From: Spirochaetia bacterium
GTDB lineage: Bacteria; Spirochaetota; Spirochaetia; UBA9216
NCBI GenBank assembly: GCA_965140585.1
Contig: OZ223272.1
Span: 448,001 to 512,000, forward strand
Direction of reading: 5' to 3'
DNA length: 64,000 nucleotides
The notes beneath the pieces are model-generated. The model had not been told where the DNA came from. It ran no database searches and saw only the letters and a list, made by a program, of their open reading frames with translations. The position numbers and the translations under genes are program-made. Positions 23,089-40,153 of the stretch are shown here, piece after piece; the first letter of the stretch is position 1; each line of letters starts with the position of its first letter.

Positions 23089-23094
23089 ATTATC

Positions 23095-25214: not shown

Positions 25215-26090
25215 TTAACCCTTAACTACAATCTTTGTTCCAACCCCACCTTCTTTATATATTTCTCTTAATTCTTCTCTAAAATAATCTATTCCAAGAT
25301 CTCCAGAACTATGCATTGGATATAACATTTTTAAAGGTAGCTCTTGAAATCTTTTTTTAGTAAATTCTAATAATTCCTCATTGGCCTGATATAATTGTAA
25401 ACCACCGATTATAGCAATTATATTATCATCACCATTCTTCTTAATATGTTCTATAGTATTTACTATTCCCGAATGACAACAACCACATACTATGATTTTT
25501 TTATTTTCTTCAAGTTCAATCACCAAAGAAATATCATCATCTATCTCATCCTGTTTTTCTTTTCCATTTTCTCTTGTAACAACTTGTTTTAATATTGGAT
25601 TGAGATCTTCTACCTTATTCGTCCTTGATATTTCTCCAGTAGTCCAGATATATTCATTCAAATTATAACGTTCTTTACTCTCGTATATTCTTCCCCTATT
25701 TCTTAGCTCATTAATTTTGGATAATTCTTTAATTCCAACGTTATTTTCTGAGCCATCATCTAATTTTAAGATTTTTTCGTTAAATATGCCTGGATGGCAG
25801 ATTATTTTTGTTTTTTCATTTGAATTATTGTAAGCATATAATAGCCCTCCTGTATGATCAAAATGACCATGACTAAGAACTATATAATCTATATCACTAA
25901 TCTCTAAACCCAGCTTTTTGAGATTAACTTCTAATCTTTCATTTTCAGGTCCTGTATCAAACAATATTTTAATAATGCTTCCATCATCGAATAAGTTTTC
26001 TATTAATGCAGAAAAACCACCGGGAGCATATTCATCTCCAATTAAGGATTTATTATCAACTATAATTGTAATATTCACTTTTTTGATCAT
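25215..26090 (-). CDS. MBL-fold metallo-hydrolase (cassette 21)
   Basis: LFDTG, SHGHFDHTGG, GCCHSG motifs. Confidence 0.88.
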   Translation of the reverse strand: MIKKVNITIIVDNKSLIGDEYAPGGFSALIENLFDDGSIIKILFDTGPENERLEVNLKKLGLEISDIDYIVLSHGHFDHTGGLLYAYNNSNEKTKIICHPGIFNEKILKLDDGSENNVGIKELSKINELRNRGRIYESKERYNLNEYIWTTGEISRTNKVEDLNPILKQVVTRENGKEKQDEIDDDISLVIELEENKKIIVCGCCHSGIVNTIEHIKKNGDDNIIAIIGGLQLYQANEELLEFTKKRFQELPLKMLYPMHSSGDLGIDYFREELREIYKEGGVGTKIVVKG

Positions 26091-26280
26091 TTATATACTC
26101 ACCTCTTTTCCATATTCTATGTACCAATAATTTAAATTACACTTTCTAATAGCCCGTCGGCCGGAGGTCCGGGCGTCTTTCTCTTGGCGGAAACATTGCA
26201 GATAACGTCCCGGGCATATGCGAAGTTGGCCGCAGGCCAATTTGGGCGAAGGGGCTTGACCCCGTAGCCGCATGTGCCCT

Positions 26281-26685
26281 GTTATGCGACGTCGCCTTTA
26301 TTAGAGAAAGATTCCGATCAATCAAACGATCTAAATAATCTCCTCTTACCATTTCTACCCAATATTCTATTCGCCCTTTGCGACTTTCACAATCATTTTT
26401 ATTTCACCTGCAAGTCAACGAGCAAAGCGAGTGTGGCAGACTTGCCAAACGGAAAAAACCTGTCATGCCCACGAAGCAGATTTTGATAATTATAAGCCAA
26501 TACTTTTTCTTTAACGTCAGAACAAACATCGTCCAACGCAACGACCTTCTTCTAACAACAACCAAATCAAAATCCAAAATCTTCCTCATTCCAGGGCGAA
26601 TTGAATATTGCAAACTATTTGGTAATCACTTATGGTTCGGAACTTTCTCCACCCCAAGATCATGCTCCGGCGATGTCCGCATAAC
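26281..26685. repeat. ORF-less cassette family A, copy 6
   Basis: Similar to A1; third att variant. Confidence 0.9.
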
Positions 26686-26848
26686 GTCCCGGGGTTATGT
26701 GACGTACGGCGAAGCCGTATGTGGCGCAGCCCGAGGAGCGCATAGCGACGATGCACATAGCCCCTGTTATCTGAAGTGCCCCCGCTCTTCAACCCAACCG
26801 CACGGCGGAGTCAAGGTTGGGTTTCTTTGAACATCTTCAACATTTCTT

Positions 26849-27376
26849 TTAATCAATTATTTTCCCCATCAATAACGCTCCATAGTATCTTCCATTTATT
26901 AAGAACTCACGCTTTTGATTTCCTTCTACCTCAAAACCAATTTTTTCATATAATTTAACAGCCCTGAAATTATCTTCTTTTACTTTTAAATTAATCTTAG
27001 TTTTATCATTCTGTTTAGCCCATAATAATAGAGAAGAAATCATTTCAGTTGCAATCCCTTCTCCCCAATATTGCTTTAAAACATAAACACTAAACTCACC
27101 AACATGTTTATTTCTTTTTCGCCCACCTGATATAAAATATAAACTTCCTATAATTTCGTCCTTATATTCTGCAACTATACAATAATGATTTGAGCTATCT
27201 ATACAATCCTGAACAAGTTCCTTTTCTCTTTCAAATGTTGATATTATTTCTCCAGCACTAAAAGATAATTCATCTGATTCAGTTGCAATTTTATCCATTA
27301 AGATTTTTCTCTTCTCGATATCGTATGATTCAATCTTTCTAATATTATAATCCATTTCTTCTTCTTTTTTATTCAC
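26849..27376 (-). CDS. GNAT acetyltransferase, RimJ/RimL-like (cassette 23)
   Basis: YWGEGIA, NFRAVKLYEKIGF. Confidence 0.88.
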   Translation of the reverse strand: MNKKEEEMDYNIRKIESYDIEKRKILMDKIATESDELSFSAGEIISTFEREKELVQDCIDSSNHYCIVAEYKDEIIGSLYFISGGRKRNKHVGEFSVYVLKQYWGEGIATEMISSLLLWAKQNDKTKINLKVKEDNFRAVKLYEKIGFEVEGNQKREFLINGRYYGALLMGKIID

Positions 27377-27740
27377 TCTCAGATTTTACCATTTTTTTTG
27401 AAATAATCTAAAACTCTTTTTCGCCCGTCGGCCGGAGGTCCGGGCGATTTCTCCCAAGGGGGCATTTCAGATAACGGCCCCAGCATAACCGAAGTTGAAG
27501 TGCAACCAAAGGAGTGTTTTGCCCAAAGAGCAAAACCGACTGTCCCTGCTCTCCTTCTCCGCAAGCTTCAATTTGGGTGGAGGCCGAATGGCCGGAACCG
27601 GTTATGGTGTGTTATGTGCTTTGAGCCCGACATCCAGACCGTTCAACGGAGTTAGGTCTGGATTCTTCATTTATCCAGCTTAAAATTACATTTAATGAAA
27701 TTAAAAACATCAAATAATTTTCTTATAAACTGTATCTTTT

Positions 27741-28622
27741 TTATCCATAATATTTATTTGTAATGATATCATAAAGCTCCTTTTTATATGATTCAGCTTT
27801 ATTTATAAAAGCTTTTTCAACTAATTCTTTTTTCTTTTCATTATTTAAACCTGGAAGATTCGTCATATTAAGCAATCTCTTCAATTCTTCATCAGATAAA
27901 ACTCGTACAACCCAATCTAAATCTTCATTAGCCAAAGCTTTCATTATTTTCTTCTTGATTTTTCGGTTGTACTCAACGGTTTTTATTTTTTCTATAAAAT
28001 TAATTATTCCATATTTAACCAAATCGTACATTAAGGCACCGGTCACAGAAAAGATTAAGGCTTGAATGACATAGTCACCTTCTCCTCCTTTCTCTTCTGG
28101 CATTTCAAGTGTGAGATCTAGTAATCTCTTTAAATATCTATATTTCTCATTATCACAATTATAAAAAGAATTAACAATTTCAATTTCGATTTTATGTACT
28201 TGGGAAAGATTATCTATTTCTTCTAAACTTATCAATGCAACTTCTTTAATAGCGAGATCTATTTCCCTTTTTAATTCTTTCCAAAAATAATCGTAGAAAT
28301 AATACCCCATACTCATTTGTATTTCTATGATAAATTCTTCCTCGCAAACTTCACATTTAACATTCATCTTTAACTTTTCTTGAAAAGTCTCTATTAAGAT
28401 TTCACTTATATCCACTATTTCTATTTCTTCATTTTTATATTCTTCATGCAATGATTTGATAAAGGAAACAGTTTTTTTATTAATATTCTCATAATAATTA
28501 TTCAACAAATCTATACTGTCAAAAACAACAAACTTTCCAGAATTAAAAATATATTTAACAGATTCATCTAATGGCTTTAGTTTTTTACTTCTACATTTTG
28601 GACATTGATTATCATAAAACAT
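27741..28622 (-). CDS. Hypothetical protein with two CxxC pairs (cassette 24)
   Basis: 293 aa; CPKC and CEVC; AAGGGG RBS. Confidence 0.65.
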   Translation of the reverse strand: MFYDNQCPKCRSKKLKPLDESVKYIFNSGKFVVFDSIDLLNNYYENINKKTVSFIKSLHEEYKNEEIEIVDISEILIETFQEKLKMNVKCEVCEEEFIIEIQMSMGYYFYDYFWKELKREIDLAIKEVALISLEEIDNLSQVHKIEIEIVNSFYNCDNEKYRYLKRLLDLTLEMPEEKGGEGDYVIQALIFSVTGALMYDLVKYGIINFIEKIKTVEYNRKIKKKIMKALANEDLDWVVRVLSDEELKRLLNMTNLPGLNNEKKKELVEKAFINKAESYKKELYDIITNKYYG

Positions 28623-28879
28623 TTCATTAACCCCTTCCTTTATTTATAATCTTTTCTCTTCGCCCGTCGGCCGGAGGTCCGGGCGTCTTCTTCTTGTCGG
28701 GCTCATTGCACATAACGTTCCGGGGTTATACGACGTTCGGCGCAGCCGAATGTGGCGCAGCCCGGAGCCCGAATGGGCGGAGCGTATAGCCCCTGTTATG
28801 TTCAGTAAAAAGGCAGGCCTCCAACTTTAAAGGAGAACTTGTACACGGATGTACAAGTTCTCTCTTTTCATCTTCAAAT

Positions 28880-29566
28880 TCATACATTAAATGCATTTCC
28901 TTTTCCTAAATTACATTCTCTACACTTTGTTTCTAAATTCTCAGGAATGGTTTCTCCTCCTTTTGACCAAGGAAGAATATGATCAACATGTAATTCAACA
29001 CCCAATTCTTTCATTGGACTTCTACCACATTTCTTACATGTAAATCCATCTCGCATCAATATCTTAAAACGTAACCTATCTGAAATTTCTCGTTTTGTTT
29101 TATGAACTATTTGCTGCTTTGATTCTTGCTTAATGATTTCATCTTTCTTTTCTTCGACATCTTCTTCGCTATCATCAGCATTTATAAAAACAACAAATTG
29201 TTCTAAAGCTTTCATCCATGAACCGAATCGACTCTCATATGGTTTTGTAGAAAATGCAGAAAGTGGCTTTTTTATTTCTGAATATCTCGGTTGTCTCCCA
29301 AGTTTTATCCAAACATTTTCTATGTTCTTAAATAATTCTTTTTCCGTAATATTCACTTTTCTATTTATTCTTAATCCTGCTTTCTCTAATGCATCAGTCC
29401 AAGACCCAAATCTATTTTGCAACGTATGATGATTATATTTTCCATACTGTTCATATTCCGCAATTGTAACACTATCTTTTTCTAATGTTTTTGATACTTT
29501 CTTTAAATCTTCTAATAATTTTTCATCTGAGATATTCCTATTGTATTCTTCTAATTCAAACATCAT
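28880..29566 (-). CDS. HNH endonuclease with N-terminal homing-endonuclease-associated repeats (cassette 25)
   Basis: Two RFGSWxxAL repeats; RDGFTCKKCG, LHVDHILPWSKGG, NL..C..CN. Confidence 0.88.
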   Translation of the reverse strand: MMFELEEYNRNISDEKLLEDLKKVSKTLEKDSVTIAEYEQYGKYNHHTLQNRFGSWTDALEKAGLRINRKVNITEKELFKNIENVWIKLGRQPRYSEIKKPLSAFSTKPYESRFGSWMKALEQFVVFINADDSEEDVEEKKDEIIKQESKQQIVHKTKREISDRLRFKILMRDGFTCKKCGRSPMKELGVELHVDHILPWSKGGETIPENLETKCRECNLGKGNAFNV

Positions 29567-29803
29567 TTTCTCATTATACCTTTTTTGGGCCAGGACGGCC
29601 CAAAAACACCCTCCGAAGCCGCCTTTTTATTGAACATAACGTCCGCGGTTATGTGATGTTTTGTGGTCGGCCCTACAGGCCGATTGGCAACTCTTTTGCA
29701 TTCAGCGCCTTTACCCTCTATCTTTCTCCATTTCGCAAAAGTGGTGACAAAACAAAATATGCCGCAGGCCAAGGAGCGTCTAGCGACGCCGCACATAGCC
29801 GCT

Positions 29804-30202
29804 GTTATACGCCGTCACAAAATAAAGAAAGTTGTACATCATCTTCACAATCTAAACATTTCTTTCACATTTCAAACTTCTTTAATATTCTATTCGACCA
29901 TACTGACTTTCACAATCTTTTTTATTTACTCCGCAAAATAACGAGCTTTGCGAGTGGGCCAGTTTTGCATAAACGTTTCTGTATGCCCCAGCCCCGTACA
30001 GATTTTGATAATTCCAAAGCCAAAACTCTTTCATAGAACGTCAGAAAAAAGTCATTGTTTGAAATTTTTCTTCATCAAAACAAAAATCAAAATCTGAAAT
30101 CAGATCTTAGTCGAACAGAATATTGCCAACTTATTATTTCATTATTTAAGCGCAGCAACTTTCTTCCACCCCATATCCTTGCCCAAAGTGATGGAGTATA
30201 AC
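29804..30202. repeat. ORF-less cassette family B, copy 3
   Basis: Similar to B1. Confidence 0.9.
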
Positions 30203-30271
30203 GTCCCGGGGTTAAGCGAAGTTGCGCAGCAATTTAGGCGTAGGCCGAATGGCCGGAGCCGCTTAACCCCT

Positions 30272-30674
30272 GTTATGCGACGTCGCTTTTTATTAGAGAA
30301 AGATTCCGATCAATCAAGTGATCTAAAAGAATCTCCACTTCTTATTTCTACCCAATATTCTATTCGCCCTTTGCGACTTTCTCAATCATTTTTATTTTAT
30401 CTGCAAGTCAACGAGCATAGCGAGTGAAGCAGACTTGCTGAACGGAACAACCTGCTGCGCCCGCGAAGCAGATTTTGATAATTATAAGCCAATACTTTTT
30501 CTTTAACGTCAGAACAAACATCGTCCAACGCAACGACCTTCTTCTAACAACCAAATCAAAATCCAAAATCTTCCTCATTCCAGGGCGAATTGAATATTGT
30601 AAACTATTTGGTAATCACTTGTGGTTCGGAACTTTCTCCACCCCAAGATCATGCTCCTGCGATGTCCGCATAAC
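30272..30674. repeat. ORF-less cassette family A, copy 7 (most divergent)
   Basis: Clustered substitutions in the left half. Confidence 0.88.
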
Positions 30675-31062
30675 GTCCCGGGGTTATATGACGTTTTTAT
30701 TTTTCTTAATTTTACCACCAATTACCCGTATTTACCAATTATAAACTATTGCTTCATGTCTGTGCATTTAACGACGATTTGAGTAGCAAAATCGGCCGAG
30801 TCTTCGAGGCATGGCGCAGTTCTGGAACGTAGCGCGATCAGCGCGAAGTGTCTTTAGCCAGAACTGTGACAAAGATTTTGACTACTCCAAATCTCTTGTT
30901 AAATGCTTACACCCAACTTACCCAAATCATAAAATAAAAATGTGGCGCAGCCCGAGGAGCTTATAGCGACGAGCAAATAACCCCTGTTATAGGCAGTAAG
31001 CGCCTCTTTGATTACATGTAGTGAGGCACGGATGCCGAACGGTAATCTTGCTATCTTTTCTG

Positions 31063-32271
31063 CTATTCTCCTCTATCTATGTTCATCATACTATTCTTAT
31101 ATTCTTTAGATGCATTTGAAACATTCATTTCTGGATATACCAATAAACCATCGAAAACAACCTTTGGTTCTATTTCAATAGTATCTCGATAAAATCCAAA
31201 AATAATTCTTTCATTAATTGGAGCATATTTAAAATCGAGAAAAGCATAACGACTACTGTCCTTTTCTCCAATTAATTTCATTAAATTTTCTTCTTTAGAG
31301 TTTTTTACAAAATCAAATTGAAAAGTTTCTGAATCTGCCCAATTATCCTTAAATTCACCTTTCAACCCAAGAGTTAAAATATGATATAATTCTTCACTTC
31401 CATATTTATTTTGCATTTTTTCTCCTATAACTTGTAATCCTTCAATTCCAAGATTCCATTGATTCTTTTTTTGAGCATGCCACAATCCGCAATTTATAAT
31501 AATTTTATCATTTGGTCGAAGCTGTTCAATCTTATTACTAATTTGTTCAAACATAGCTTCTTCTCTAAATTCCCAAGAATAATTCTTTTTATATTCCAGC
31601 GTTTTCAATTCGAATTTAGTCATTTCTATCAATGTATTAACAACTTCTGTATTTATAGTATTTTTATATAGTGATAATACGTTCAAATAATTTCTTAATA
31701 TTTCTTCATAATTAGAAGATGAATGTTCGAGCGTCTGGCTACTTTCAAGTAAATTAATATCTTCTATTTCATTTAGATTCAGGATGGTAATTACTGCATT
31801 CTTAAAAACATCATCTTTATGATTTAGATCAAAACATGAAATTGATATCATTGCTTTATTATTCTTCTTTAATTCAGCATTTATATTTCTTACTTCTAAT
31901 AAAATATCTTTATGTAATCCTAATATAAGGTCATCAAGTATGAACGATTCATCTTTTACATATAAATCATATATATAGGAGTTTGCATCCATATCTTCTA
32001 TCAAAAGATATCTATACCCTTCTTCATAAGCACTTTTTATTATAAGAGATAACATTAAAACATGCTCTTCAATATAATGAGTTTCACCTATAAAGATGAT
32101 TCGATTCTTTGAAAAAGCGGTTAATAAATTTTCTGGTAAATTCGATATTGATTTTGGCTTATCAAAATATGAGGCTTCACTAACATATTTTCGTTCTGGA
32201 GATTGTTGCTTGGTTGTGCAACTAAAAAGTATTAATAAAATCAAAATAAGAGCTGTAAACTTTTTTAACAT
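31063..32271 (-). CDS. Lipoprotein, EreA/ChaN-like (erythromycin esterase superfamily) (cassette 28)
   Basis: Lipobox LFSC; IFIGETH, LLIE, REEAM, IIINCGLWHAQK, FDGLL. Confidence 0.65.
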   Translation of the reverse strand: MLKKFTALILILLILFSCTTKQQSPERKYVSEASYFDKPKSISNLPENLLTAFSKNRIIFIGETHYIEEHVLMLSLIIKSAYEEGYRYLLIEDMDANSYIYDLYVKDESFILDDLILGLHKDILLEVRNINAELKKNNKAMISISCFDLNHKDDVFKNAVITILNLNEIEDINLLESSQTLEHSSSNYEEILRNYLNVLSLYKNTINTEVVNTLIEMTKFELKTLEYKKNYSWEFREEAMFEQISNKIEQLRPNDKIIINCGLWHAQKKNQWNLGIEGLQVIGEKMQNKYGSEELYHILTLGLKGEFKDNWADSETFQFDFVKNSKEENLMKLIGEKDSSRYAFLDFKYAPINERIIFGFYRDTIEIEPKVVFDGLLVYPEMNVSNASKEYKNSMMNIDRGE

Positions 32272-32494
32272 TTTATATATCCTTCATTCTTAAATGTTTG
32301 AGCCATGGACGGCTCAAACTCTTATTCTTAATTACTCTTGGCGCTTATTGACTATAACGTTCCAGGGTTATACGACGTTCGGCAAAGCCGAATGTGGCGC
32401 AGCCCGGAGGCCGTATGGCCGGAGCGAATAACCCTTGTTATAGGCAGTAAGCGCCTCTTTGATTACATGTAGTGAGGCACGGATGCCGAACGGA

Positions 32495-32702
32495 AATCTT
32501 TCTTCTTAATCTTTCTTCTTAATCTTTCTTCTTAATCTTTCTTCTTAATCTTTCTTCTTAATCTTTCTTCTTAATCTTTCTTCTTAATCTTTCTTCTTAA
32601 TCTTTCTTCTTAATCTTTCTTCTTAATCTTTCTTCTTAATCTTTCTTCTTAATCTTTCTTCTTAATCTTTCTTCTTAATCTTTCTTCTTAATCTTTCTTC
32701 TT
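32495..32702. repeat. 13-mer tandem repeat (AATCTTTCTTCTT) x16
   Basis: 208 bp counted directly. Confidence 0.96.
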
Positions 32703-33191
32703 AACAACATCTTCATAAATCATTGAAACAGCATCTGGAATGGATAAGTTTGAATTAATTCTGCTCTCAGAAATAATTCCAATCAAATCTTCTTCTCTCC
32801 ACCACTTCCTCATATCCTCTTCTCCAAAATCAGAACTATTTGATTTCGATTTATGTCGTCGTATTGTCTCTTCAAAAGATAAATCATAATAATAAGCAAA
32901 TATTTCAGAGTCAAATTCTTCTATTGCTTTTTTAAATAATCTAAGATAATAATCTGAGTATAAAATACCTTCTAAAATTACAAATTCTGAATTTCTCTTT
33001 CCATATTTAATTAATTCCTCTAAAAGTGGGATTGCCTTATTTTCAATTCTATCATGAACCCATAACATCTCTCTTCTTATATAATCCTGAGAAATCATCA
33101 TAGTATTTCGACCCAATTTTCTTTGTAATGATTTTGCTAAGGAAGTTTTTCCACTTCCTGAATTACCTCTAATAATTATTAGCTTTGACAT
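32688..33191 (-). CDS. P-loop (AAA_33-like) kinase, copy 1 (cassette 29)
   Basis: IIIRGNSGSGKT Walker A, VILEG. Confidence 0.85.
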   Translation of the reverse strand: MSKLIIIRGNSGSGKTSLAKSLQRKLGRNTMMISQDYIRREMLWVHDRIENKAIPLLEELIKYGKRNSEFVILEGILYSDYYLRLFKKAIEEFDSEIFAYYYDLSFEETIRRHKSKSNSSDFGEEDMRKWWREEDLIGIISESRINSNLSIPDAVSMIYEDVVKKKD

Positions 33192-33379
33192 CTACTTTTT
33201 ATTTCCCTCTTAGAATCCGCCACGGAAGGCGGATTTCTTTCTTCTCGAAAAATCTTGGCGCTTATTGCCTATAACGTTCCAGGGTTATACGACGTTCGGC
33301 AAAGCCGAATGTGGCGCAGCCCGGAGGTCGTATGGCCGGAGCGAATAACCCTTGTTATAGGCAGTAAGCGCCTCTTTGA

Positions 33380-33913
33380 TTACATGTAGTGAGGCACGGA
33401 TGCCGAACGGAAATCTTTCTTCTTAACAACGTCTTCATAAATCATTGAAACAGCATCTGGAATGGATAAGTCTGAATTAATTCTGCTCTCAGAAATAATT
33501 CCAATCAAATCTTCTTCTCTCCACCACTTCCTCATATCCTCTTCTCCAAAATCAGAACTATTTGATTTCGATTTATGTCGTCGTATTGTCTCTTCAAAAG
33601 ATAAATCATAATAATAAGCAAATATTTCAGAGTCAAATTCTTCTATTGCTTTTTTAAATAATCTAAGATAATAATCTGAGTATAAAATACCTTCTAAAAT
33701 TACAAATTCTGAATTTCTCTTTCCATATTTAATTAATTCCTCTAAAAGTGGGATTGCCTTATTTTCAATTCTATCATGAACCCATAACATCTCTCTTCTT
33801 ATATAATCCTGAGAAATCATCATAGTATTTCGACCCAATTTTCTTTGTAATGATTTTGCTAAGGAAGTTTTTCCACTTCCTGAATTACCTCTAATAATTA
33901 TTAGCTTTGACAT
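33380..33913 (-). CDS. P-loop kinase, copy 2, with 10-aa C-terminal extension (cassette 30)
   Basis: Single 13-mer unit, so no TAA is formed; ends FRSASVPHYM. Confidence 0.85.
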   Translation of the reverse strand: MSKLIIIRGNSGSGKTSLAKSLQRKLGRNTMMISQDYIRREMLWVHDRIENKAIPLLEELIKYGKRNSEFVILEGILYSDYYLRLFKKAIEEFDSEIFAYYYDLSFEETIRRHKSKSNSSDFGEEDMRKWWREEDLIGIISESRINSDLSIPDAVSMIYEDVVKKKDFRSASVPHYM

Positions 33914-34133
33914 CTACTTTTTATTTCCCTCTTAGAATCCGCCACGGAAGGCGGATTTCTTTCTTCTCGAAAAATCTTGGCGCTTATTGCCTATAACGTT
34001 CCAGGGTTATACGACGTTCGGCAAAGCCGAATGTGGCGCAGCCCGGAGGCCGTATGGCCGGAGCGAATAACCCTTGTTATAGGCAGTAAGCGCCTCTTTG
34101 ATTACATGTAGTGAGGCACGGATGCCGAACGGA

Positions 34134-34276
34134 AATCTTTCTTCTTAATCTTTCTTCTTAATCTTTCTTCTTAATCTTTCTTCTTAATCTTTCTTCTTAA
34201 TCTTTCTTCTTAATCTTTCTTCTTAATCTTTCTTCTTAATCTTTCTTCTTAATCTTTCTTCTTAATCTTTCTTCTT
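34134..34276. repeat. 13-mer tandem repeat (AATCTTTCTTCTT) x11
   Basis: 143 bp counted directly. Confidence 0.96.
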
Positions 34277-34765
34277 AACAACATCTTCATAAATCATTGA
34301 AACAGCATCTGGAATGGATAAGTTTGAATTAATTCTGCTCTCAGAAATAATTCCAATCAAATCTTCTTCTCTCCACCACTTCCTCATATCCTCTTCTCCA
34401 AAATCAGAACTATTTGATTTCGATTTATGTCGTCGTATTGTCTCTTCAAAAGATAAATCATAATAATAAGCAAATATTTCAGAGTCAAATTCTTCTATTG
34501 CTTTTTTAAATAATCTAAGATAATAATCTGAGTATAAAATACCTTCTAAAATTACAAATTCTGAATTTCTCTTTCCATATTTAATTAATTCCTCTAAAAG
34601 TGGGATTGCCTTATTTTCAATTCTATCATGAACCCATAACATCTCTCTTCTTATATAATCCTGAGAAATCATCATAGTATTTCGACCCAATTTTCTTTGT
34701 AATGATTTTGCTAAGGAAGTTTTTCCACTTCCTGAATTACCTCTAATAATTATTAGCTTTGACAT
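34262..34765 (-). CDS. P-loop kinase, copy 3 (cassette 31)
   Basis: Protein identical to copy 1. Confidence 0.85.
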   Translation of the reverse strand: MSKLIIIRGNSGSGKTSLAKSLQRKLGRNTMMISQDYIRREMLWVHDRIENKAIPLLEELIKYGKRNSEFVILEGILYSDYYLRLFKKAIEEFDSEIFAYYYDLSFEETIRRHKSKSNSSDFGEEDMRKWWREEDLIGIISESRINSNLSIPDAVSMIYEDVVKKKD

Positions 34766-34927
34766 CTACTTTTTATTTCCCTCTTAGAATCCGCCACGGA
34801 AGGCGGATTTCTTTCTTCTCGAAAAATCTTGGCGCTTATTGCCTATAACGTCCCGGGGTTATACGACGTTCGGCAAAGCCGAATGTGGCGCAGCCCGAAG
34901 CCCGAATGGGCGGAGCGTATAGCCCCT

Positions 34928-35328
34928 GTTATGCGACGTCGCCTTTATTAGAGAAAGATTCCGACCAATCAAACGATCTAAATAATCTCCTCTTACCATT
35001 TCTACCCAATATTCTATTCGCCCTTTGCGACTTTCACAATCATTTTTATTTTACCTGCAAGTCAACGAGCAAAGCGAGTGTGGCAGACTTGCCAAACGGA
35101 AAAACCTGTCATGCCCACGAAGCAGATTTTGATAATTATAAGCCAATACTTTTTCTTTAACGTCAGAACAAACATCGTCCAGCGCAACGACCTTCTTTTA
35201 ACAACCAAATCAAAATCCAAAATCTTCCTCATTCCAGGGCGAATTGAATATTGTAAACTATTTGGTAATCACTTGTGGTTCGGAACTTTCTCCACCCCAA
35301 GATCATGCTCCTGCGATGTCCGCATAAC
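34928..35328. repeat. ORF-less cassette family A, copy 8
   Basis: Similar to A1 with small indels. Confidence 0.9.
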
Positions 35329-35406
35329 GTCCCGGGGTTATACGACGTTCGGCAAAGCCGAATGTGGCGCAGCCCGAAGCCCGAATGGGCGGAGCGTATA
35401 GCCCCT

Positions 35407-35809
35407 GTTATGCGACGTCGCCTTTATTAGAGAAAGATTCCGATCAATCAAACGATCTAAATAATCTCCTCTTACCATTTCTACCCAATATTCTATTCGC
35501 CCTTTGCGACTTTCACAATCATTTTTTTTCACCTGCAAGTTAACGAGCAAAGCGAGTGTGGCAGACTTGCCAAACGGAAAAACCTGTCATGCCCACGAAG
35601 CAGATTTTGATAATTATAAGCCAATACTTTTTCTTTAACGTCAGAACAAACATCGTCCAACGCAACAACCTTCTTCTAACAACAACCAAATCAAAATCCA
35701 AAATCTTCCTCATTCCAGGGCGAATTAAATATTGCAAACTATTTGGTAATCACTTATGGTTCGGAACTTTCTCCACCCCAAGATCATGCTCCGGCGATGT
35801 CCGCATAAC
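35407..35809. repeat. ORF-less cassette family A, copy 9
   Basis: Similar to A1 with small indels. Confidence 0.9.
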
Positions 35810-35974
35810 GTCCGCGGTTATGTGATGTTTTGTGGTCGGGCCCTACAGGCCGATTGGCAACTCTTTTGCATTCAGCGCCTTTACCCTCTATCTTGCTACT
35901 ACTTCGCAAAAGTGGTGACAAAGCAAAATATGCCGCAGGCCAAGGAGCGTTTAGCGACGCCGCACATAGCCGCT

Positions 35975-36372
35975 GTTATACGCCGTCACAGAATAAAGAA
36001 AGTTGTACATCATCTTCATAATCTAAACATTTATTTCACATTTCAAACTTCTTTAATATTCTATTCGACCATACTGACTTTCACAATCTTTTTTATTTAC
36101 TCCGCAAAATAACGAGCTTTGCGAGTGGGCCAGTTTTGCATAAACGTTTCTGCATGCCCCAGCCCCGTACAGATTTTGATTATTCCAAAGCCAAAACTCT
36201 TTCATAGAACGTCAGAAAAAAGTCATTGTTTGAAATTTTTCTTCATCAAAATAGAAATCAAAATCTGAAATCATATCTTAGTCGAAGAGAATATTGCCAA
36301 CTTATTATTTCATTATTAAGCGCAGCAACTTTCTTCCACCCAATATCCTTGCCCAAAGTGATGGAGTATAAC
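35975..36372. repeat. ORF-less cassette family B, copy 4
   Basis: Similar to B1. Confidence 0.9.
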
Positions 36373-36622
36373 GTCCGTGGTTAAGCGAAGCTGATGCGCA
36401 ACTAAAGGAGTGTTTTGCGAATGCGCAAAACCGACTGACCCTGCTCTACTTCTCCGTAAGCTTCAGTTTGGGTGAAAGCGCCATGGCGCTTTCACCGCTT
36501 AACCATTGTTATGTGCTTTGAGCCCGACATCCAGACCGTTCAACGGAGTTAGGTCTGGATTCTTCTTTTCTTTTCCCAGGATTCTGAAAATAATCAATAC
36601 TGCTGTAAACACGTATTATGTT

Positions 36623-37201
36623 TTATAATCCTATTACTCTATTCCAATCTGCAATATACATATAAATTCTTTGAAATTCTGATGGTAGTAGCATTCTATT
36701 ATGTGCTATAAAATTTCTTGTTTTTTCAAGTTCATCCATTCTTTGTTTTAACCAATGTTGCGATGGTATCAAGGTTTCAAAAAAATGCCAAAACTCAATC
36801 ATAATTTGAGACAGCATTCCAAAATCTATAAAACCAAGAAGATCAGATTTTTCACCTTCTAACCAACTATCTTTTAAAGCGGATTCCTGACGTCTTTGAG
36901 CATGATCTTTTATTCTATTTGGAATCGAATCCCACCAATTTACCCCGATATTTTCCTGTAATGTTTCTCGAATTAGATCTCTTATTTCATTTTCAAAACA
37001 AAATATTAAACTATATAAACGAGACATTTCTAGTGCTTTATTTCTCCTATTAATCGAGAAAGGAGAGATAACCTCATTTGTTAAATCTATCTCAGTTCTC
37101 GAATCAGAAGCCCCTATTTGTATTCCTGCTTTTTGAAATTTATTTGCTTCAGATTCAAACATTAACCCTCGAAAAAGATAATCTCTTAAATCTTTAGTCA
37201 A
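36623..37201 (-). CDS. Swt1-like HEPN domain protein (cassette 35)
   Basis: FENEIRDLI..L....G.NWW, RNFIAH (RxxxxH). Confidence 0.8.
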   Translation of the reverse strand: MTKDLRDYLFRGLMFESEANKFQKAGIQIGASDSRTEIDLTNEVISPFSINRRNKALEMSRLYSLIFCFENEIRDLIRETLQENIGVNWWDSIPNRIKDHAQRRQESALKDSWLEGEKSDLLGFIDFGMLSQIMIEFWHFFETLIPSQHWLKQRMDELEKTRNFIAHNRMLLPSEFQRIYMYIADWNRVIGL

Positions 37202-37814
37202 TTAAATGCTCCTTAACACTTTTAAATATTGCGTTATAAACTTCTATATCTTTTGTTGCTGGTAAATGTATCTGAATATTATAATGTAATGAAGTTTGAC
37301 TGATCTTCCTTTCAATTGACTCAATTTTTTCTGGCTCGATTTCTTCTTTCTCATTATCATTATCTTCTACTATTTTTGTCTCTTCAACTACATCAGAATT
37401 TATATCTGCAAATTCTAATAGTGAATAAAATGTTTTCATCATCAATTCTGCATTGCGTTCTGAAGTATTATGAGTACTTTTAAACTTACCTTTTATTAAT
37501 TCTTTATCTTTATCTTCAGGATATCTGCTAATAGTAAAAATATCCGAATATGCCTCTTTAATTGCTTTGCCCAAGATTTTTCGTGATAAAGCTTCATTTC
37601 TAAATTCTTTATATTCATCAGTTGGTGATCCATCCTCTGTTAAAAACCCTAAAGCTTTTAATAATGGAATAAATGCTCTATGATTAGTCGAAGTAAATCC
37701 TATATCTTTCAAATGCTGATTAGTAAATTTCCCAGGAGCTTGTCCTTGTTTTATTTTATTAAAAAAATCTCCTAATTGACCATAAACTTGCAGCGGAATA
37801 TTTGCCAAACTCAT
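37194..37814 (-). CDS. DUF5343 domain protein (cassette 35)
   Basis: APGKFT..HLKDIGF, LKALGFLTEDGSPT, YNIQIHLPAT. Confidence 0.8.
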   Translation of the reverse strand: MSLANIPLQVYGQLGDFFNKIKQGQAPGKFTNQHLKDIGFTSTNHRAFIPLLKALGFLTEDGSPTDEYKEFRNEALSRKILGKAIKEAYSDIFTISRYPEDKDKELIKGKFKSTHNTSERNAELMMKTFYSLLEFADINSDVVEETKIVEDNDNEKEEIEPEKIESIERKISQTSLHYNIQIHLPATKDIEVYNAIFKSVKEHLID

Positions 37815-38132
37815 ATTCTCTCCCTTTATTTAAATTATTTCATATATATAACATTATAACGCTAAAATAATAATTTGGATCCTTAAAAATCACAACTTAA
37901 ACATTCTCTCTTCGCCCGTCGGCCGGAGGTCCGGGCGTCTTCCTCTTGTCGGGCTCATTGCACATAACGTCCCGCGGTTATGTGATGTTTTGTGCTCGGC
38001 CCTACAGGCCGATTGGCAACTCTTTTGCATTCAGCGCCTTTACCCTCTATCTTTCTCCATTTCGCAAAAGTGGTGACAAAACAAAATATGCCGCAGGCCA
38101 AGGAGCGTCTAGCGACGCCGCACATAGCCGCT

Positions 38133-38531
38133 GTTATACGCCGTCACAAAATAAAGAAAGTTGTACATCATCTTCACAATCTAAACATTTCTTTCACATT
38201 TCAAACTTCTTTAATATTCTATTCGACCATACTGACTTTCACAATCTTTTTTATTTACTTCGCAAAATAACGAGCTTTGCGAGTGGGCCAGTTTTGCATA
38301 AACGTTTCTGCATGCCCCAGCCCCGTACAGATTTTGATTATTCCAAAGCCAAAACTCTTTCATAGAACGTCAGAAAAAAGTCGTTGTTTGAAATTTTTCT
38401 TCATCAAAACAAAAATCAAAATCTGAAATCAGATCTTAGTCGAACAGAATATTGCAAACTTATTATTTCATTATTTAAGCGCAGCAACTTTCTTCCACCC
38501 CATATCCTTGCCAAAAGTGATGGAGTATAAC
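38133..38531. repeat. ORF-less cassette family B, copy 5
   Basis: Most similar to B3. Confidence 0.9.
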
Positions 38532-38609
38532 GTCCCGGGGTTATACGACGTTCGGCAAAGCCGAATGTGGCGCAGCCCGAAGCCCGAATGGGCGGAGCGT
38601 ATAGCCCCT

Positions 38610-39014
38610 GTTATGCGACGTCGCCTTTATTAGAGAAAGATTCCGATCAATCAAACGATCTAAATAATCTCCTCTTACCATTTCTACCCAATATTCTATT
38701 CGCCCTTTGCGACTTTCACAATCATTTTTATTTCACCTGCAAGTCAACGAGCAAAGTGAGTGTGGCAGACTTGCCAAACTGAAAAAACCTGTCATGCCCA
38801 CGAAGCAGATTTTGATAATTATAAGCCAATACTTTTTCTTTAACGTCAGAACAAACATCGTCCAACGCAACGACCTTCTTATAACAACAACCAAATCAAA
38901 ATCCAAAATCTTCCTCATTCCAGGGCGAATTGAATATTGCAAACTATTTGGTAATCACTTATGGTTCGGAACTTTCTCCACCCCAAGATCATGCTCCGGC
39001 GATGTCCGCATAAC
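38610..39014. repeat. ORF-less cassette family A, copy 10 (first cassette of the array)
   Basis: Shares diagnostic variants with A1. Confidence 0.9.
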
Positions 39015-39081
39015 TCAGAATTATAAACTGGAATATCGTGCATATAACCCTCTAGATCCAGTACTTATAAACCTGTTATTC
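39008..39081 (-). other. Array-proximal (attI-equivalent) recombination site
   Basis: Cassette homology stops at the G/TTATGC junction (39014); the site is an imperfect palindrome ending in the integrase stop codon. Confidence 0.75.
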
Positions 39082-40153
39082 ATAATAACCCGTCCAGTGG
39101 ACTATTTATATTTTTTAGGTCTTTAGTACTTACATGTGTATAAATCTGTGTTGTTTTTGGATCACGATGGCCTAAGAGCTCCTGAATATATCTGAGGTCT
39201 GTACCGTTTTCCAACAGGTGAGTGGCAAAGGCATGTCTTAAAGAATGTATACTTACATTTTTTTCAATACCTGTTGCTTCGATAGCTTTATAAAAGGCGT
39301 TCTGTGCAGATCTTGTAGCAAGATGGGTATCCGCACCTGCACTGCCAGGAAAAAGCCATGTATGTACCATCACTTTGGATCTGTATTCATTAATCATATG
39401 AATAATCTCAGTTGAAAGCATTACATATCTATCTTTTCGTCCTTTTGCCTGCCTGATATGAATTACTTTCCTATCGGTGTCAATATCCTGCAACTGTATT
39501 ATAACTGCTTCGCTTACTCGGAGACCTGCAGAGTATATTAATGATAATAGCAATCGGTGCTTAATATTCGGCGGAGATGTTATAATCTTCTTTACTTCTT
39601 CCCTGGATAGAATATCCGGATACTTCTTTTCTTTTTTCGGCATGGGAATCGATGCTGCAGGATTAAACAGACCGCCTAGATATCCGTATTTATAATAGCA
39701 TTTCAGGGCGCTCACACATTGTACAAAGTATGTTCTTGAGCATCCTGCAAGTGTCCGCATTTTCTCAAGATATATTTTAATATCCTCTGTCGTAACCTCT
39801 GAAGGATAAAGTTCTGTTCTTTCAAAGAACCACTTCAGCTGCATCTTATATGTTTCGATAGTATGAGGACTATAGTCTCTAAGCTTTAGATACTGCAGCA
39901 TCTTTTCCAGATAGCGGTTATGAGACGGTTCCTGATTTTCGAGAGACTTCTCATCCACATTAAACCTGCCGGTTTTATACAATGACAAAAGAAAGTGCTG
40001 CATATTTGCATCTGTATCCGGAAATGTCCATTTTTTATTTGCCGGCTGCCATTGTCTTCCCGGTATTGTACGTACAATATCAAGAACCTGAGCATCGAAA
40101 GGGAAAAATATACCTATTTTATTATTTTCTTCATAAACGATTTCAACTGCCAA
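39080..40153 (-). CDS. Tyrosine recombinase (integron-integrase-like SAM_4 N-domain; lacks the IntI insertion; extra N-terminal domain)
   Basis: Catalytic R (GLRVSE), K (KGRKDR), HxLRH, LGH, Y (QIYTHV); LRDYSPHTIETY SAM-like domain. Confidence 0.93.
   Translation of the reverse strand: MAVEIVYEENNKIGIFFPFDAQVLDIVRTIPGRQWQPANKKWTFPDTDANMQHFLLSLYKTGRFNVDEKSLENQEPSHNRYLEKMLQYLKLRDYSPHTIETYKMQLKWFFERTELYPSEVTTEDIKIYLEKMRTLAGCSRTYFVQCVSALKCYYKYGYLGGLFNPAASIPMPKKEKKYPDILSREEVKKIITSPPNIKHRLLLSLIYSAGLRVSEAVIIQLQDIDTDRKVIHIRQAKGRKDRYVMLSTEIIHMINEYRSKVMVHTWLFPGSAGADTHLATRSAQNAFYKAIEATGIEKNVSIHSLRHAFATHLLENGTDLRYIQELLGHRDPKTTQIYTHVSTKDLKNINSPLDGLL

What the first reader, a model, noticed from the sequence alone, without database searches (positions are those of the whole stretch)
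39080..40153. Integrase lacks the IntI insertion and carries an extra N-terminal domain
Seen: only 23 residues lie between KGRKDR and WLFP, with no LPxALxRKYP-like or DPRSG..RRHH-like segment; the catalytic R-K-H-R-H-Y set is intact. A ~65 aa N-terminal extension (FPFDAQVLDIVRTIPGRQWQPANKKWTFP) precedes the SAM-like domain. Known: IntI enzymes have an insertion containing the I2 helix that contributes to recognising folded attC sites. Inference: the extension resembles the HARP-like domains at the N-terminus of some SNF2 helicases, which bind ss/ds junctions, and may substitute for I2.
Basis: partly seen in the sequence, partly recalled or inferred. Interest (0 to 1): 0.82.

Follow-up and report, generated by a model that had tools for sequence, protein, structure and literature searches.

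The report
Integron-like array with a non-IntI integrase
A tyrosine recombinase that lacks the hallmark insertion of integron integrases, and instead carries a small fork-binding-like domain at its start, heads a 31-kb array of about 37 gene cassettes, which suggests a second kind of integron-like gene-capture system.

Summary
ORF 39080-40153(-) encodes a 357-aa tyrosine recombinase with intact catalytic residues. Only 23 residues separate KGRKDR from WLFP, where IntI carries its ~31-aa patch. A ~60-aa N-terminal domain is HARP-like (Pfam HARP in 51 of 102 relatives; Foldseek top hit SMARCAL1 HARP, weak).

The context matters more. The gene heads a co-oriented array of ~37 cassettes (7963-38619). 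Each cassette ends in an attC-like site whose bottom strand folds into R stem, one-sided 4-nt bulge, covarying L stem and a branched top, without the extrahelical bases of canonical attC.

Orthologues (38-96% identity) in 8 of 8 fetched spirochaete loci head the same kind of array, on the same strand. One closed genome has 132 sites over 332 kb while its canonical IntI is broken. Homology with the sister genome stops exactly at the attI junction (39012).

The same genome also has a true IntI with its own canonical attC array on another contig. Some cross-talk occurs: nested composite sites, and R1-type sites inside an IntI array.

Best reading (0.7): this is the dedicated integrase of a distinct integron-like platform. 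That the HARP-like domain replaces I2 is plausible but untested. I found no description in six literature searches.

The parts
39080..40153 (-). Integrase gene (357 aa): a Xer/XerA-like tyrosine recombinase without the IntI patch
   Evidence: Best curated profile is NF040815, 229.4 bits (cut-off 220), matching residues 84-348 only.
39974..40153 (-). N-terminal HARP-like domain (residues 1-60, b-b-a-b-b-a; W35 at least 90% conserved, W42 invariant)
39686..39910 (-). SAM-like core-binding domain (residues 82-156; PF13495)
39125..39610 (-). Catalytic domain (residues 182-343; PF00589; R212, K237, H303, R306, H329, Y338)
39359..39427 (-). Short 23-residue connector (residues 243-265) at the place where IntI carries its ~31-aa insertion
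39009..39090 (-). Candidate attI: four GTT(T)AT-type boxes from the stop codon to the first cassette junction (..CTGAGTTAT). Homology with the sister genome ends at 39012.
7963..38619 (-). Cassette array: 37 att sites in one orientation. ORFs lie on the - strand, co-oriented with the integrase; G+C is 33-40% against 42-52% in the flanks.
38522..38619 (+). First R1-type att site, given on its folding (bottom) strand: R stem, 4-nt bulge, 11-bp L stem, branched top. It is the representative of 31 sites found by the covariance model.
37953..38137 (+). Long-type att site (~175-185 nt; hairpin 1 replaced by a long insert). Four more lie at 19630-19803, 23207-23380, 29636-29808 and 35805-35979.
   Evidence: paired half-site motifs; missed by model R1.
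30670..30990 (+). Composite site: a long R1-type site with a complete canonical (C6-type) attC nested in its centre (30787-30901, read on the - strand)
38620..39008 (-). First cassette: ORF-less, ~483 bp with its site, present in 5 near-identical (99-100%) copies in the array (17863, 21407, 21890, 23768, 38527) plus diverged ones
   Evidence: (families D1-D3).
36623..37814 (-). Cassette with a DUF5343 + HEPN(Swt1-like) gene pair
9883..11085 (+). ORFs on the opposite strand inside the array: 10387-11085 is an IS256/Mutator-family transposase fragment (profile positions 175-371 of 379); 9883-10320 was not scanned

Best explanation
The ORF encodes the dedicated site-specific recombinase of a sedentary, integron-like gene-cassette platform that is distinct from classical integrons. 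The gene sits upstream of the cassettes and points the same way. Its attI lies in the ~70 nt after its stop codon. Each cassette ends in an 83-185-nt imperfect palindrome. The bottom strand of that palindrome folds into a short invariant R stem (ATAAC/GTTAT), a one-sided 4-nt bulge, an 11-bp L stem and a branched top. INFERRED: the enzyme binds the folded bottom strand and exchanges one strand pair with attI or another site within the shared GTTAT, and replication resolves the product, as in integrons and as in XerCD integration of folded CTX-phage DNA (the latter recalled). Because the enzyme lacks the I2 helix/patch that reads the extrahelical bases of canonical attC, site recognition must rest on something else. 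The most likely candidate, also INFERRED, is the N-terminal HARP-like domain, whose structural relatives bind branched or ss/ds-junction DNA (recalled), docking on the branch point or the bulge.
For: SHOWN by comparison:
(1) 31 model hits, 37 sites by half-site motifs, all in one orientation, starting 461 nt below the stop codon.
(2) Folding is supported by covariation. Over 50 distinct sites from 6 genomes, 93.3% of cells pair and 18 of 32 pairs show compensatory changes; 0 of 500 shuffles reach this, and slid controls pair 32-46% (window alone). The alignment was fitted to the model, which favours the structure.
(3) Strand asymmetry: two near-invariant G.T wobbles (49 of 50, 49 of 49), and the + strand is 3.6-4.5 kcal/mol more stable in 4 of 4 sites folded.
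(4) Linkage is conserved. In 8 of 8 orthologous loci fetched (38-96% identity, at least 5 genera), all 73 primary hits lie downstream of the integrase on the strand opposite to it. These loci hold only ~1 kb of upstream sequence.
(5) Genome-wide, most R1-type sites lie in that array: G039 17 of 19, G091 9 of 12, G066 3 of 4, G001 7 of 7, G261 9 of 9. In the own genome the core motif occurs 25 times in the array and 6 times elsewhere.
(6) G261 (one contig, 98% complete) has 132 hits on one strand over 331.9 kb directly below its orthologue and none in the 20 kb above. Its only IntI match is split and carries stops.
(7) Homology with the 96%-identical sister genome (95% DNA identity) ends at window 39012, the attI junction. 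Beyond it, cassettes differ or are reordered. A contig of run X3 diverges at the same place.
(8) attI architecture recurs below the stop codon in G000, G039, G091, G001 and G234.
(9) The genome's canonical integron on C6 has a different site type with two single-base bulges. Model R1 finds nothing in its first 20 kb.
(10) More distant homologues are also followed by structured repeats: two Flavobacteriaceae loci with 3 each, and a Chryseobacterium plasmid with 4 copies of a branched hairpin, z -11.3, the first 18 nt after the stop.
Against: No recombination or binding was observed; all evidence is comparative.
A true IntI is present in this genome and in 15 of the 23 other genomes of the class sample that carry a full-length homologue, so action in trans cannot be excluded.
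Cross-talk exists. Two R1-type sites lie in series with canonical attCs inside the IntI array of G039, and canonical attCs are nested in R1-type sites. This shows that some enzyme joins the two site types.
Three of the distant loci with 10 kb of downstream sequence (L018, L022, L038) showed no repeats by my criteria, and L013 showed none by those criteria though it holds one R1 hit.
The HARP assignment is weak for this protein itself (22.5 bits, below 25; fold Z under 6).
G091 has 3 R1-type sites ~390 kb from the integrase.
Confidence: 0.7

Rival explanations
1. The array is an ordinary integron array (a CALIN) built and shuffled in trans by the canonical IntI on contig C6. The adjacent recombinase does something else, such as array inversion, stabilisation or an unrelated Xer-like task.
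For: A true IntI is present (374.7 bits) and common in the class (97 of 301 genomes over the cut-off). R1-type sites occur in series inside the IntI array of G039. The sites share the ATAAC/GTTAT R boxes with the C6 attCs.
Against: The integrase-attI-array arrangement and strand are conserved in 8 of 8 fetched loci. A 332-kb array exists in a closed genome whose IntI is broken, and intact arrays exist in G001 and G234, whose IntI matches are split into two pieces, none over the cut-off. The homology break lies exactly at the attI next to this gene. The two arrays of this genome stay almost pure in site type: 22 of 23 C6-type motifs on C6, 25 of 31 R1 core motifs in the window array, and none of the other 6 in the C6 array.
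Confidence: 0.12
2. The enzyme is the array's recombinase but works on double-stranded sites like a classical Xer or Cre-type enzyme. The 5' half of each site reads ATAAC-N8-GTTAT, a symmetric core with an 8-bp spacer. Folding plays no part, and the N-domain is an accessory arm-type or multimerisation domain.
For: The I2 helix is absent, and the literature links I2 to the switch from ds to ss substrates (PMC7790495, abstract and passages read). The symmetric ATAAC-N8-GTTAT is visible in the sites. attI carries four direct or inverted GTTAT-type boxes.
Against: Compensatory changes occur between the two halves of a site ~80 nt apart: 9 of 11 L-stem pairs and 5 of 9 hairpin-1 pairs. A purely double-stranded mechanism gives no reason for them. 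The spacer itself varies between sites, which would block ds exchange between them. Conserved G.T wobbles make the two strands unequal.
Confidence: 0.12
3. The gene is the integrase of a phage, ICE or other mobile element, or a housekeeping Xer, that lies next to the array by chance.
For: The best curated profile is the XerA equivalog NF040815 (229.4 against 220). Homologues occur on plasmids.
Against: The genome already has two ordinary Xer genes on C4 (300 and 312 aa), which fall in the XerC/D clade away from this protein. No phage or conjugation genes lie nearby: upstream are core genes at higher G+C. The linkage recurs in 8 of 8 loci.
Confidence: 0.03

Closest known systems
Integrons (IntI integrase + attI + attC cassette arrays; e.g. 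VchIntIA, PDB 2a3v)
   Same: A tyrosine recombinase sits next to an attI and a one-directional array of mostly single-gene cassettes, each ending in an imperfect palindrome with R''-L''...L'-R' boxes and a GTTAT-type crossover box. The bottom strand folds. Cassette content is typical of sedentary integrons (GNAT, PIN, HEPN, zeta-like kinase, unknowns). The best structural match of the whole model is IntI4 (Foldseek E 2.4e-15). The C-terminal SPLD motif and the SAM_4-type core-binding domain are shared with this genome's IntI.
   Different: There is no I2/patch insertion. The protein scores below the IntI cut-off and falls outside the IntI clade (SH-aLRT 100) in a quick tree. It has an extra HARP-like N-domain. 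The gene is co-oriented with the cassettes, and attI lies at its 3' end. The sites have a one-sided 4-nt bulge instead of a two-sided unpaired spacer, no single-base extrahelical bulges, and a branched top.
'Integron-like' subgroup of simple tyrosine recombinases (Smyshlyaev et al. 2021, PMC8138268; one passage read)
   Same: [quoted passage not shown]
   Different: The passage read gives no link to cassette arrays, to an attI, or to an N-terminal HARP-like domain. I did not read its supplements (closed), which might list such members.
XerA / XerC / XerD chromosome-dimer resolvases, and XerCD integration of folded single-stranded CTX-phage DNA (recalled, no call)
   Same: Same two-domain fold without the I2 insertion (4a8e E 1.8e-40, 5hxy, 1a0p). 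The CTX case is a precedent for an I2-less Xer enzyme exchanging one strand pair with a folded single-stranded hairpin.
   Different: The Xer enzymes act at one dif site per replicon, have no N-terminal HARP-like domain and head no arrays. This genome has separate XerC/D-type genes.
HARP / substrate-recognition domains of SMARCAL1, T4 UvsW and archaeal XPB (4o66, 1rif/2oca, 2fz4)
   Same: A ~60-residue b-b-a-b-b-a domain, supported by Pfam HARP hits in half of the family and by Foldseek and VIA matches. These domains are known, from recall, to bind forked or branched DNA.
   Different: Here the domain is fused to a tyrosine recombinase instead of an SF2 motor. The similarity is weak (8-12% identity, Z 4.7-5.6). 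No paper in the library holds both 'HARP domain' and 'tyrosine recombinase'.

Membership tests
Integron integrase IntI (TIGR02249) | Tyrosine-recombinase catalytic set R-K-H-R-H-Y | tested here: met
   R212, K237, H303, H329 and Y338 are invariant and R306 is at least 90% conserved in 102 relatives. PF00589 E 1.6e-42.
Integron integrase IntI (TIGR02249) | IntI-specific ~30-35-residue insertion (I2 helix/patch) between the beta-hairpin and the HxxR motif | tested here: not met
   23 residues instead of about 54. The profile and VchIntIA alignments split around it. There are 31+9-residue gaps against the own IntI. The block is absent in 38 of 38 family rows and present in 10 of 10 IntI rows.
Integron integrase IntI (TIGR02249) | Score over the curated cut-off (265 bits) | tested here: not met
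   192.8 bits. The genome's real IntI scores 374.7.
Integron integrase IntI (TIGR02249) | Placement inside the IntI clade | tested here: not met
   In the quick ML tree (85 rows, 264 columns, patch columns removed) IntI forms one clade of 10 (SH-aLRT 100) that excludes it. 36 of 38 family rows form another group (93). This was a quick search with LG+G4 and no bootstrap.
Integron (system) | Integrase adjacent to an attI and an array of cassettes bounded by structured att sites | tested here: met
Integron (system) | attC with two extrahelical bases and a two-sided unpaired central spacer on the bottom strand | tested here: not met
   R1-type sites fold with a one-sided 4-nt bulge and a continuous 11-bp L stem. 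The C6 attCs of the same genome show the two single-base bulges. These are energy-model folds, not experiments.
XerA (NF040815, equivalog) | Score over the curated cut-off (220 bits) | tested here: met
   229.4 bits over residues 84-348. The N-domain is not part of the profile. The model's product name is 'site-specific tyrosine recombinase/integron integrase'.
XerA (NF040815, equivalog) | Role as the chromosome-dimer resolvase acting at dif | not testable with these tools
   Context argues against it: the array linkage, and two other Xer genes in the genome.
HARP domain (PF07443) | Score over the gathering cut-off (25 bits) | tested here: inconclusive
   22.5 bits, E 8.1e-5 for this protein. 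51 of 102 relatives hit at E<=0.01, best 4.1e-8.
HARP domain (PF07443) | HARP fold | tested here: inconclusive
   Foldseek rank 1 is 4o66 (E 0.03, prob 0.99, TM 0.61). VIA gives Z 4.7, rmsd 1.9 over 48 residues (rank 13), with UvsW-N at Z 5.6 and XPB-N at Z 5.3. All lie below the tool's stated noise level.
HARP domain (PF07443) | Binding of forked or branched DNA | not testable with these tools
   No protein-DNA tool was available. This step is inference only.

The most novel reading that the evidence does not exclude
This is one member of a widespread second class of integron-like gene-capture platforms found in Spirochaetota, Bacteroidota (including plasmids), Bacillota and perhaps others. 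Its recombinase never acquired the I2 helix. It reads folded, branched single-stranded att sites through a HARP-type structure-specific DNA-binding domain. These platforms can grow to more than 330 kb, exchange cassettes with classical integrons through composite double sites, and account for part of the unexplained 'CALIN' arrays. They give the integron field the I2-less comparator that it says it lacks.
Probability: 0.4. Interest if true: 0.92.

Novelty: new variant of a known kind. Interest (0 to 1): 0.84.

Why it matters
The integron papers read here treat the I2/patch insertion as the defining feature of IntI (PMC4889954, PMC9024848, PMC8138268) and as the innovation that moved it from double-stranded to folded single-stranded substrates (PMC7790495); detection tools use it to define an integron. 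PMC7790495 notes a 'lack of intermediates' for studying how that innovation arose. Here a patch-less relative heads cassette arrays with covarying, folded att sites, in the same genome as a classical integron.

If the enzyme is active on these sites, three things follow. Structure-specific cassette recombination has evolved, or persisted, without I2. Arrays now filed as integrase-less CALINs may have an overlooked integrase next to them. A HARP-type domain would gain a new role, in site-specific recombination.

Two orthogonal platforms in one cell, with composite sites, also make a natural system for studying site selectivity. Their cassettes are a large untapped gene pool (defence, toxin-antitoxin and modifying enzymes).

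Tried and rejected
- Rfam at gathering thresholds on the whole window: 0 matches.
- Model R1 on 80 more distant loci from the search for related loci: 1 hit only (L013, Spirochaetota). This is expected for a lineage-specific model and is no evidence that those loci lack arrays.
- Self-BLAST of 20 distant loci that carry the N-domain. 12 end less than 2 kb below the integrase, so they are uninformative, though suggestive of assembly breaks at repeats. L013, L018, L022 and L038 had 10 kb downstream and no repeats by my criteria (25-400 nt, at least 150 nt apart). L025 and L027 had 3 repeats each, and L030 had a pair.
- Upstream synteny is conserved only with the same-genus genome within the short flanks held, so I make no claim about a fixed chromosomal locus.
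- Promoter and terminator scan of 37800-40300: 11 promoter-like sites against 7.4 +/- 2.8 in shuffles, which is not significant.
- Fold searches of the N-domain gave only weak matches. I therefore do not file it as a proven HARP domain.
- Sequencing runs: 4 listed, all kept as contigs, and no RNA holder listed. Contigs cannot show rare excision circles or deletions, so in-vivo activity could not be tested. The many ~1340-nt 'joints' between 36557-36569 and 37903-37912 link conserved modules of different cassettes ('between: not known'), and I do not read them as excision.
- Complex prediction and the protein-atlas search were not used, because no protein-protein claim is made.
- Literature: six searches found no paper that links a patch-less or HARP-bearing recombinase to cassette arrays. 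Subscription journals and supplements were not visible.
- Rows dropped. Alignment A3 left out 16 hits covering 80% of the query or less, P0002 (the window's own protein), and P0026 and P0118 (long N-terminal extras), from the 120 listed. The tree used 85 rows. The ORFs I extracted for L048, L052, L073 and L079 came out at 0-14 aa and L071, L080 and L065 at 156-234 aa; these and several other loci were never put into the tree, and no row was dropped by its 230-aa filter.
Full report
WHAT IS THERE. The ORF at 39080-40153 on the minus strand exists as described: 357 aa with a TTG start. Pfam finds a tyrosine-recombinase catalytic domain (residues 182-343, E 1.6e-42), a SAM_4-type core-binding domain (82-156), and a sub-threshold HARP match at residues 17-48 (22.5 bits, cut-off 25). 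The best curated family is the XerA equivalog NF040815 (229.4 bits, cut-off 220, residues 84-348). The integron-integrase model TIGR02249 reaches only 192.8 of 265 bits and matches in two pieces that skip profile positions 181-234.

phmmer against solved structures gives archaeal XerA first (4a8e, E 1.8e-40). It aligns VchIntIA (2a3v) in two pieces, with 21 query residues standing opposite 62 residues of IntI4.

THE MISSING PATCH. The 23 residues between KGRKDR and WLFP can be counted. BLASTP against this genome's own IntI opens gaps of 31 and 9 residues there. In an 85-row alignment the block of the type '..G.GxV.LP.AL..KYP.A...W.W..' is present in 10 of 10 IntI rows and in none of the 38 rows of this family. 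The catalytic residues are conserved in 102 relatives.

THE N-TERMINAL DOMAIN. Of the 120 best database relatives listed, 104 cover at least 94% of the protein, N-terminus included. W42 is invariant, and W35 and P45 are at least 90% conserved. AlphaFold2 with a 102-row alignment gives mean pLDDT 91.4. It shows a separate b-b-a-b-b-a domain at residues 1-60, joined by a less confident linker. Folded alone, the domain has pLDDT 91.7.

Foldseek's first hit for the domain is the SMARCAL1 HARP domain (4o66, E 0.03, probability 0.99, TM 0.61), and archaeal XPB also appears in the list. The Foldseek-independent aligner gives Z 5.6 to the T4 UvsW N-domain, 5.3 to the XPB N-domain and 4.7 to HARP. It also gives Z 5.7 to an unrelated SUI1 fold, and all values lie under the tool's own noise line.

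At sequence level 51 of 102 relatives hit Pfam HARP at E<=0.01, the best at 4.1e-8. I take 'HARP-like' as moderately supported. That such domains bind branched DNA is recalled knowledge and was not tested here.

THE CONTEXT: A CASSETTE ARRAY. From about 6 to 40 kb the window is AT-rich with strongly negative GC skew, and it is full of repeats. On the minus strand the repeats read R''(ATAAC)-spacer-L''...L'-spacer-R'(GTTAT), like attC sites.

A covariance model (R1) built from 19 of them finds 31 sites, all on the plus strand, between 7963 and 38619, and none elsewhere in the window. Pairing of half-site motifs adds five long sites and one composite site, 37 in all. ORFs between sites lie on the minus strand, co-oriented with the integrase.

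The cassettes encode typical sedentary-integron cargo:
- three GNAT acetyltransferases;
- a PIN toxin;
- a DUF5343/HEPN pair;
- a zeta-toxin-like kinase, scanned in two of its three copies;
- an HNH nuclease;
- beta-lactamase-fold and metallo-beta-lactamase-fold proteins;
- 7 of the 20 ORFs scanned have no family.

THE SITES FOLD. On the plus strand, which is the bottom strand relative to the cassette ORFs, the consensus has four parts: a 5-bp invariant R stem, a 4-nt bulge on one side only, an 11-bp L stem, and a top with two or three small hairpins.

In the window alone, 92.7% of cells pair and 11 pairs show compensatory change; 0 of 500 shuffles reach this. Over 50 distinct sites from six genomes, 93.3% of cells pair. 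18 of 32 pairs have compensatory changes, 9 of the 11 in the L stem. 0 of 500 shuffles reach the observed values, and slid controls pair 32-46%. That alignment was fitted to the model, which favours the structure.

Two G.T wobbles are nearly invariant (49 of 50, 49 of 49). On the other strand they would be A.C mismatches. In 4 of 4 sites folded both ways, the plus strand is 3.6-4.5 kcal/mol more stable.

THE SAME GENOME ALSO HAS A CLASSICAL INTEGRON. Contig C6 encodes a true IntI (374.7 bits; 419 aa, with the patch) that is divergent from its own array. That array holds 22 attC motifs over 42 kb. The bottom strands of these attCs fold with two single-base bulges in the L stem, the classical extrahelical bases. 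The R1-type sites have none.

One genome thus pairs a patch-bearing IntI with bulge-bearing attCs, and a patch-less enzyme with bulge-less, branched sites. R1 finds nothing in the first 20 kb of the C6 array. The looser R1 core motif has 25 hits in the window array and 6 scattered elsewhere, none of them in the C6 array.

attI AND TURNOVER. The first cassette junction (..CTGAGTTAT|GCGG..) lies 67 nt below the stop codon. The stretch between holds four GTT(T)AT-type boxes. Similar architecture follows the stop codon in G039, G091, G001 and G234.

Against the same-genus genome G039 (integrase 96% identical), collinear homology at 95% runs from the upstream genes through the integrase and stops at window 39012. 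Beyond that point only a few cassettes are shared, in another order. A contig of public run X3 diverges at the same place. This is the footprint of cassette exchange at that attI since the two lineages split.

CONSERVED LINKAGE. In a sample of 301 genomes of the class, 55 have a match at E<=1e-40, including 9 of 10 genomes in the window's family. 23 other genomes have a match that starts within the first 15 residues.

I fetched the downstream side of eight orthologues (38-96% identity; families f1, f8, f17). All 73 primary R1 hits there lie below the integrase's 3' end, on the strand opposite to it. Those loci hold only about 1 kb of upstream sequence, so this test is one-sided.

The whole-genome searches fill the gap:
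- G039: 17 of 19 hits lie in the array.
- G091: 9 of 12.
- G066: 3 of 4.
- G001: 7 of 7.
- G261: 9 of 9 on one strand.

G261 is a single-contig genome. I fetched 500 kb around its orthologue and found 132 hits, all on one strand, from 1,848,865 to 2,180,715. That is 331.9 kb, or 8.4% of the genome. There were none in the 20 kb upstream and none in the 145 kb beyond the array.

INDEPENDENCE FROM IntI, AND CROSS-TALK. Canonical IntI is common in the class: 97 of 301 genomes score over the cut-off. Of the 23 other genomes with a full-length homologue:
- 15 have an intact IntI.
- 3 (G001, G234, G261) have only split or stop-bearing matches.
- 5 fragmented assemblies have no match at E<=1e-40.

The giant G261 array therefore exists beside a broken IntI, which argues that the adjacent enzyme suffices.

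The two systems are not sealed off from each other. One canonical attC sits nested in the centre of a long R1-type site in the window (30670-30990). The same composite occurs twice in G039's array and once in G091's. In G039 two R1 hits lie inside the IntI array; one of them, a complete site, stands in series between canonical attCs, and half-site motifs beside canonical attCs there suggest nested arrangements too. So cassettes do pass between platforms, and at least one of the enzymes accepts both kinds of site. This keeps alive the rival that IntI serves the array in trans.

PLACE AMONG RECOMBINASES. A quick ML tree (85 rows, 264 core columns, patch columns removed, LG+G4, SH-aLRT only) gives these groups:
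- XerC/D-type proteins separate at 99. This group includes the genome's two other Xer genes.
- The remaining 70 rows form a superclade that holds IntI, archaeal and CPR Xer-like proteins, and this family.
- IntI is one clade at 100.
- 36 of the 38 N-domain-bearing rows form another group at 93.
- The window's protein sits in a spirochaete clade of 11 at 100.

The protein is therefore a cousin of IntI and not an IntI that lost its patch, with the caveats of a quick, unrooted tree. Smyshlyaev et al. 2021 noted that in their 'integron-like' subgroup the insertion 'is not fully conserved' (PMC8138268, one passage read). That passage makes no link to arrays.

BEYOND SPIROCHAETES. The architecture is large and wide. 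2,786 representatives at 50% identity match at E<=1e-30, although not all of them carry the N-domain. Named hits come from Spirochaetales, Bacillota, Bacteroidota and one archaeal MAG.

Two Flavobacteriaceae loci carry three ~130-150-nt repeats downstream. For 2 of the 5 copies folded, the strand opposite to the integrase forms a long branched hairpin (z -4.8 and -4.6); the other three gave z -1.9 to +1.0.

On a Chryseobacterium plasmid (NZ_CP041688.1) a 37%-identical full-length homologue is followed by four copies of a ~280-nt branched hairpin. The copy folded has z -11.3. The first copy starts 18 nt after the stop, and the copies are 2.1-3.1 kb apart, with co-oriented genes between them. 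Other distant loci show nothing, or end at a contig break just below the gene. The generality is suggested, not established.

HOW IT MOST LIKELY WORKS. Shown by comparison: the enzyme, its attI and the array form one conserved unit; the sites are selected to fold, with a strand bias; cassettes turn over at the attI.

Inferred:
- The enzyme binds the folded bottom strand through its core-binding and catalytic domains on the R and L stems.
- It cleaves within the shared GTTAT and exchanges one strand pair with attI or with another site.
- Replication resolves the product, as in integrons.
- XerCD acting on folded CTX-phage DNA is a recalled precedent for an I2-less enzyme doing this.

More speculative: the HARP-like domain supplies the structure-specific contact, at the branch point or the bulge, that the I2 helix supplies in IntI through the extrahelical bases.

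LITERATURE. The integron papers read in passages define IntI by the extra domain and leave CALINs unexplained (PMC4889954; PMC9024848). PMC7790495 describes I2 acquisition as the innovation towards single-strand recombination and notes the 'lack of intermediates'. PMC8352920 models 'Spirochaetes-type' attCs but, in the passages read, says nothing about the integrase. Six searches found nothing on a patch-less or HARP-bearing integrase with cassette arrays. Supplements and subscription journals were not visible.

VERDICT. All evidence is comparative, and activity and the role of the N-domain remain to be tested.

Noticed in passing
Own genome contig C6:916649-962341 (loci L008, L009): A complete classical integron in the same genome. 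Its IntI (419 aa, 374.7 bits) carries a ~110-aa N-terminal extension that is not HARP-like and is divergent from an array of 22 canonical attC sites over about 42 kb. The first cassettes include a DUF262-like 567-aa gene and a toxin-antitoxin-like pair (not scanned).
   Followed up: partly
window 30670-30990; L120 5524-5843 and 6765-7083; L122 about 8536-8800; L134 (G039 C3, IntI array): Composite 'site within a site': a complete canonical attC nested, in cassette orientation, in the centre of a long R1-type site, conserved at 80-92% identity between genomes. The reverse also occurs: two R1 hits lie inside an IntI array, one of them a complete site in series with canonical attCs. These may be dual-use sites that let cassettes move between the two platforms.
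   Followed up: partly
G261:C1:1848865-2180715 (loci L126, L136-L150, L152): A 331.9-kb array with 132 model hits, all on one strand, directly below the orthologous integrase in a closed 3.93-Mb genome (8.4% of it). The canonical IntI of that genome is split and carries stops. From recall, this exceeds the Vibrio cholerae superintegron (~126 kb).
   Followed up: partly
window, e.g. 37913-37937 (13 copies) and 12618-12648 (8 copies): Two further conserved GC-rich hairpin modules flank many sites. One lies at the 5' start of cassettes just after the GTTAT box (13 copies, family D15). The other lies between the ORF stop and the site (8 of the 10 copies in family D12). Both recur in G066, and the first also in G039 and G091. 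Their function is unknown (transcription insulation, or extra recombinase contacts?).
   Followed up: no
window 38527-39035, 17863-18371, 21407-21915, 21890-22398, 23768-24276 and diverged copies: An ORF-less ~483-bp cassette is present in five near-identical copies, including the first position next to attI and one tandem pair. It carries a promoter-like TTGTGA-17-TAGAAT on the cassette strand (38721-38693). That scan was not significant overall.
   Followed up: partly
window 32300-34800: Three copies of a cassette encoding a 167-177-aa AAA_33/zeta-toxin-like kinase (32688-33191, 33380-33913, 34262-34765; the latter two scanned against Pfam). Runs of a 13-nt tandem repeat lie beside them (32495-32872, 34134-34446).
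   Followed up: no
window 9883-11085 (+): Two ORFs on the opposite strand inside the array; 10387-11085 is an IS256/Mutator-family transposase fragment (profile positions 175-371 of 379), probably a decayed insertion sequence. 9883-10320 was not scanned.
   Followed up: no
L160 = NZ_CP041688.1 7035-26054 (Chryseobacterium plasmid); L025, L027 (Flavobacteriaceae): Distant full-length homologues (35-38% identity) are followed by repeated, strongly structured branched hairpins between co-oriented gene groups. On the plasmid the first copy starts 18 nt after the stop codon.
   Followed up: partly
G091:C1:3906575-3919108 (locus L135): Three R1-type sites about 390 kb from the integrase-linked array, with no integrase examined nearby. 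This may be a detached mini-array.
   Followed up: no
loci L010, L012, L015, L017, L019, L021, L043, L049 and others: In 12 of 20 distant loci that encode an N-domain-bearing homologue, the contig ends less than 2 kb below the gene; in 8 of these the full 10 kb is present above it. This is the pattern expected if repeats downstream break assemblies. One such locus is from an archaeal (Undinarchaeales) MAG.
   Followed up: no
window 16377-17864 (-), 25215-26090 (-), 8196-8711, 11131-11553, 26849-27376 (-): Cassettes with a beta-lactamase-fold protein (PF00144, 495 aa), a metallo-beta-lactamase-fold protein and three GNAT acetyltransferases. Only the family names are known; no resistance function was tested or implied.
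   Followed up: no
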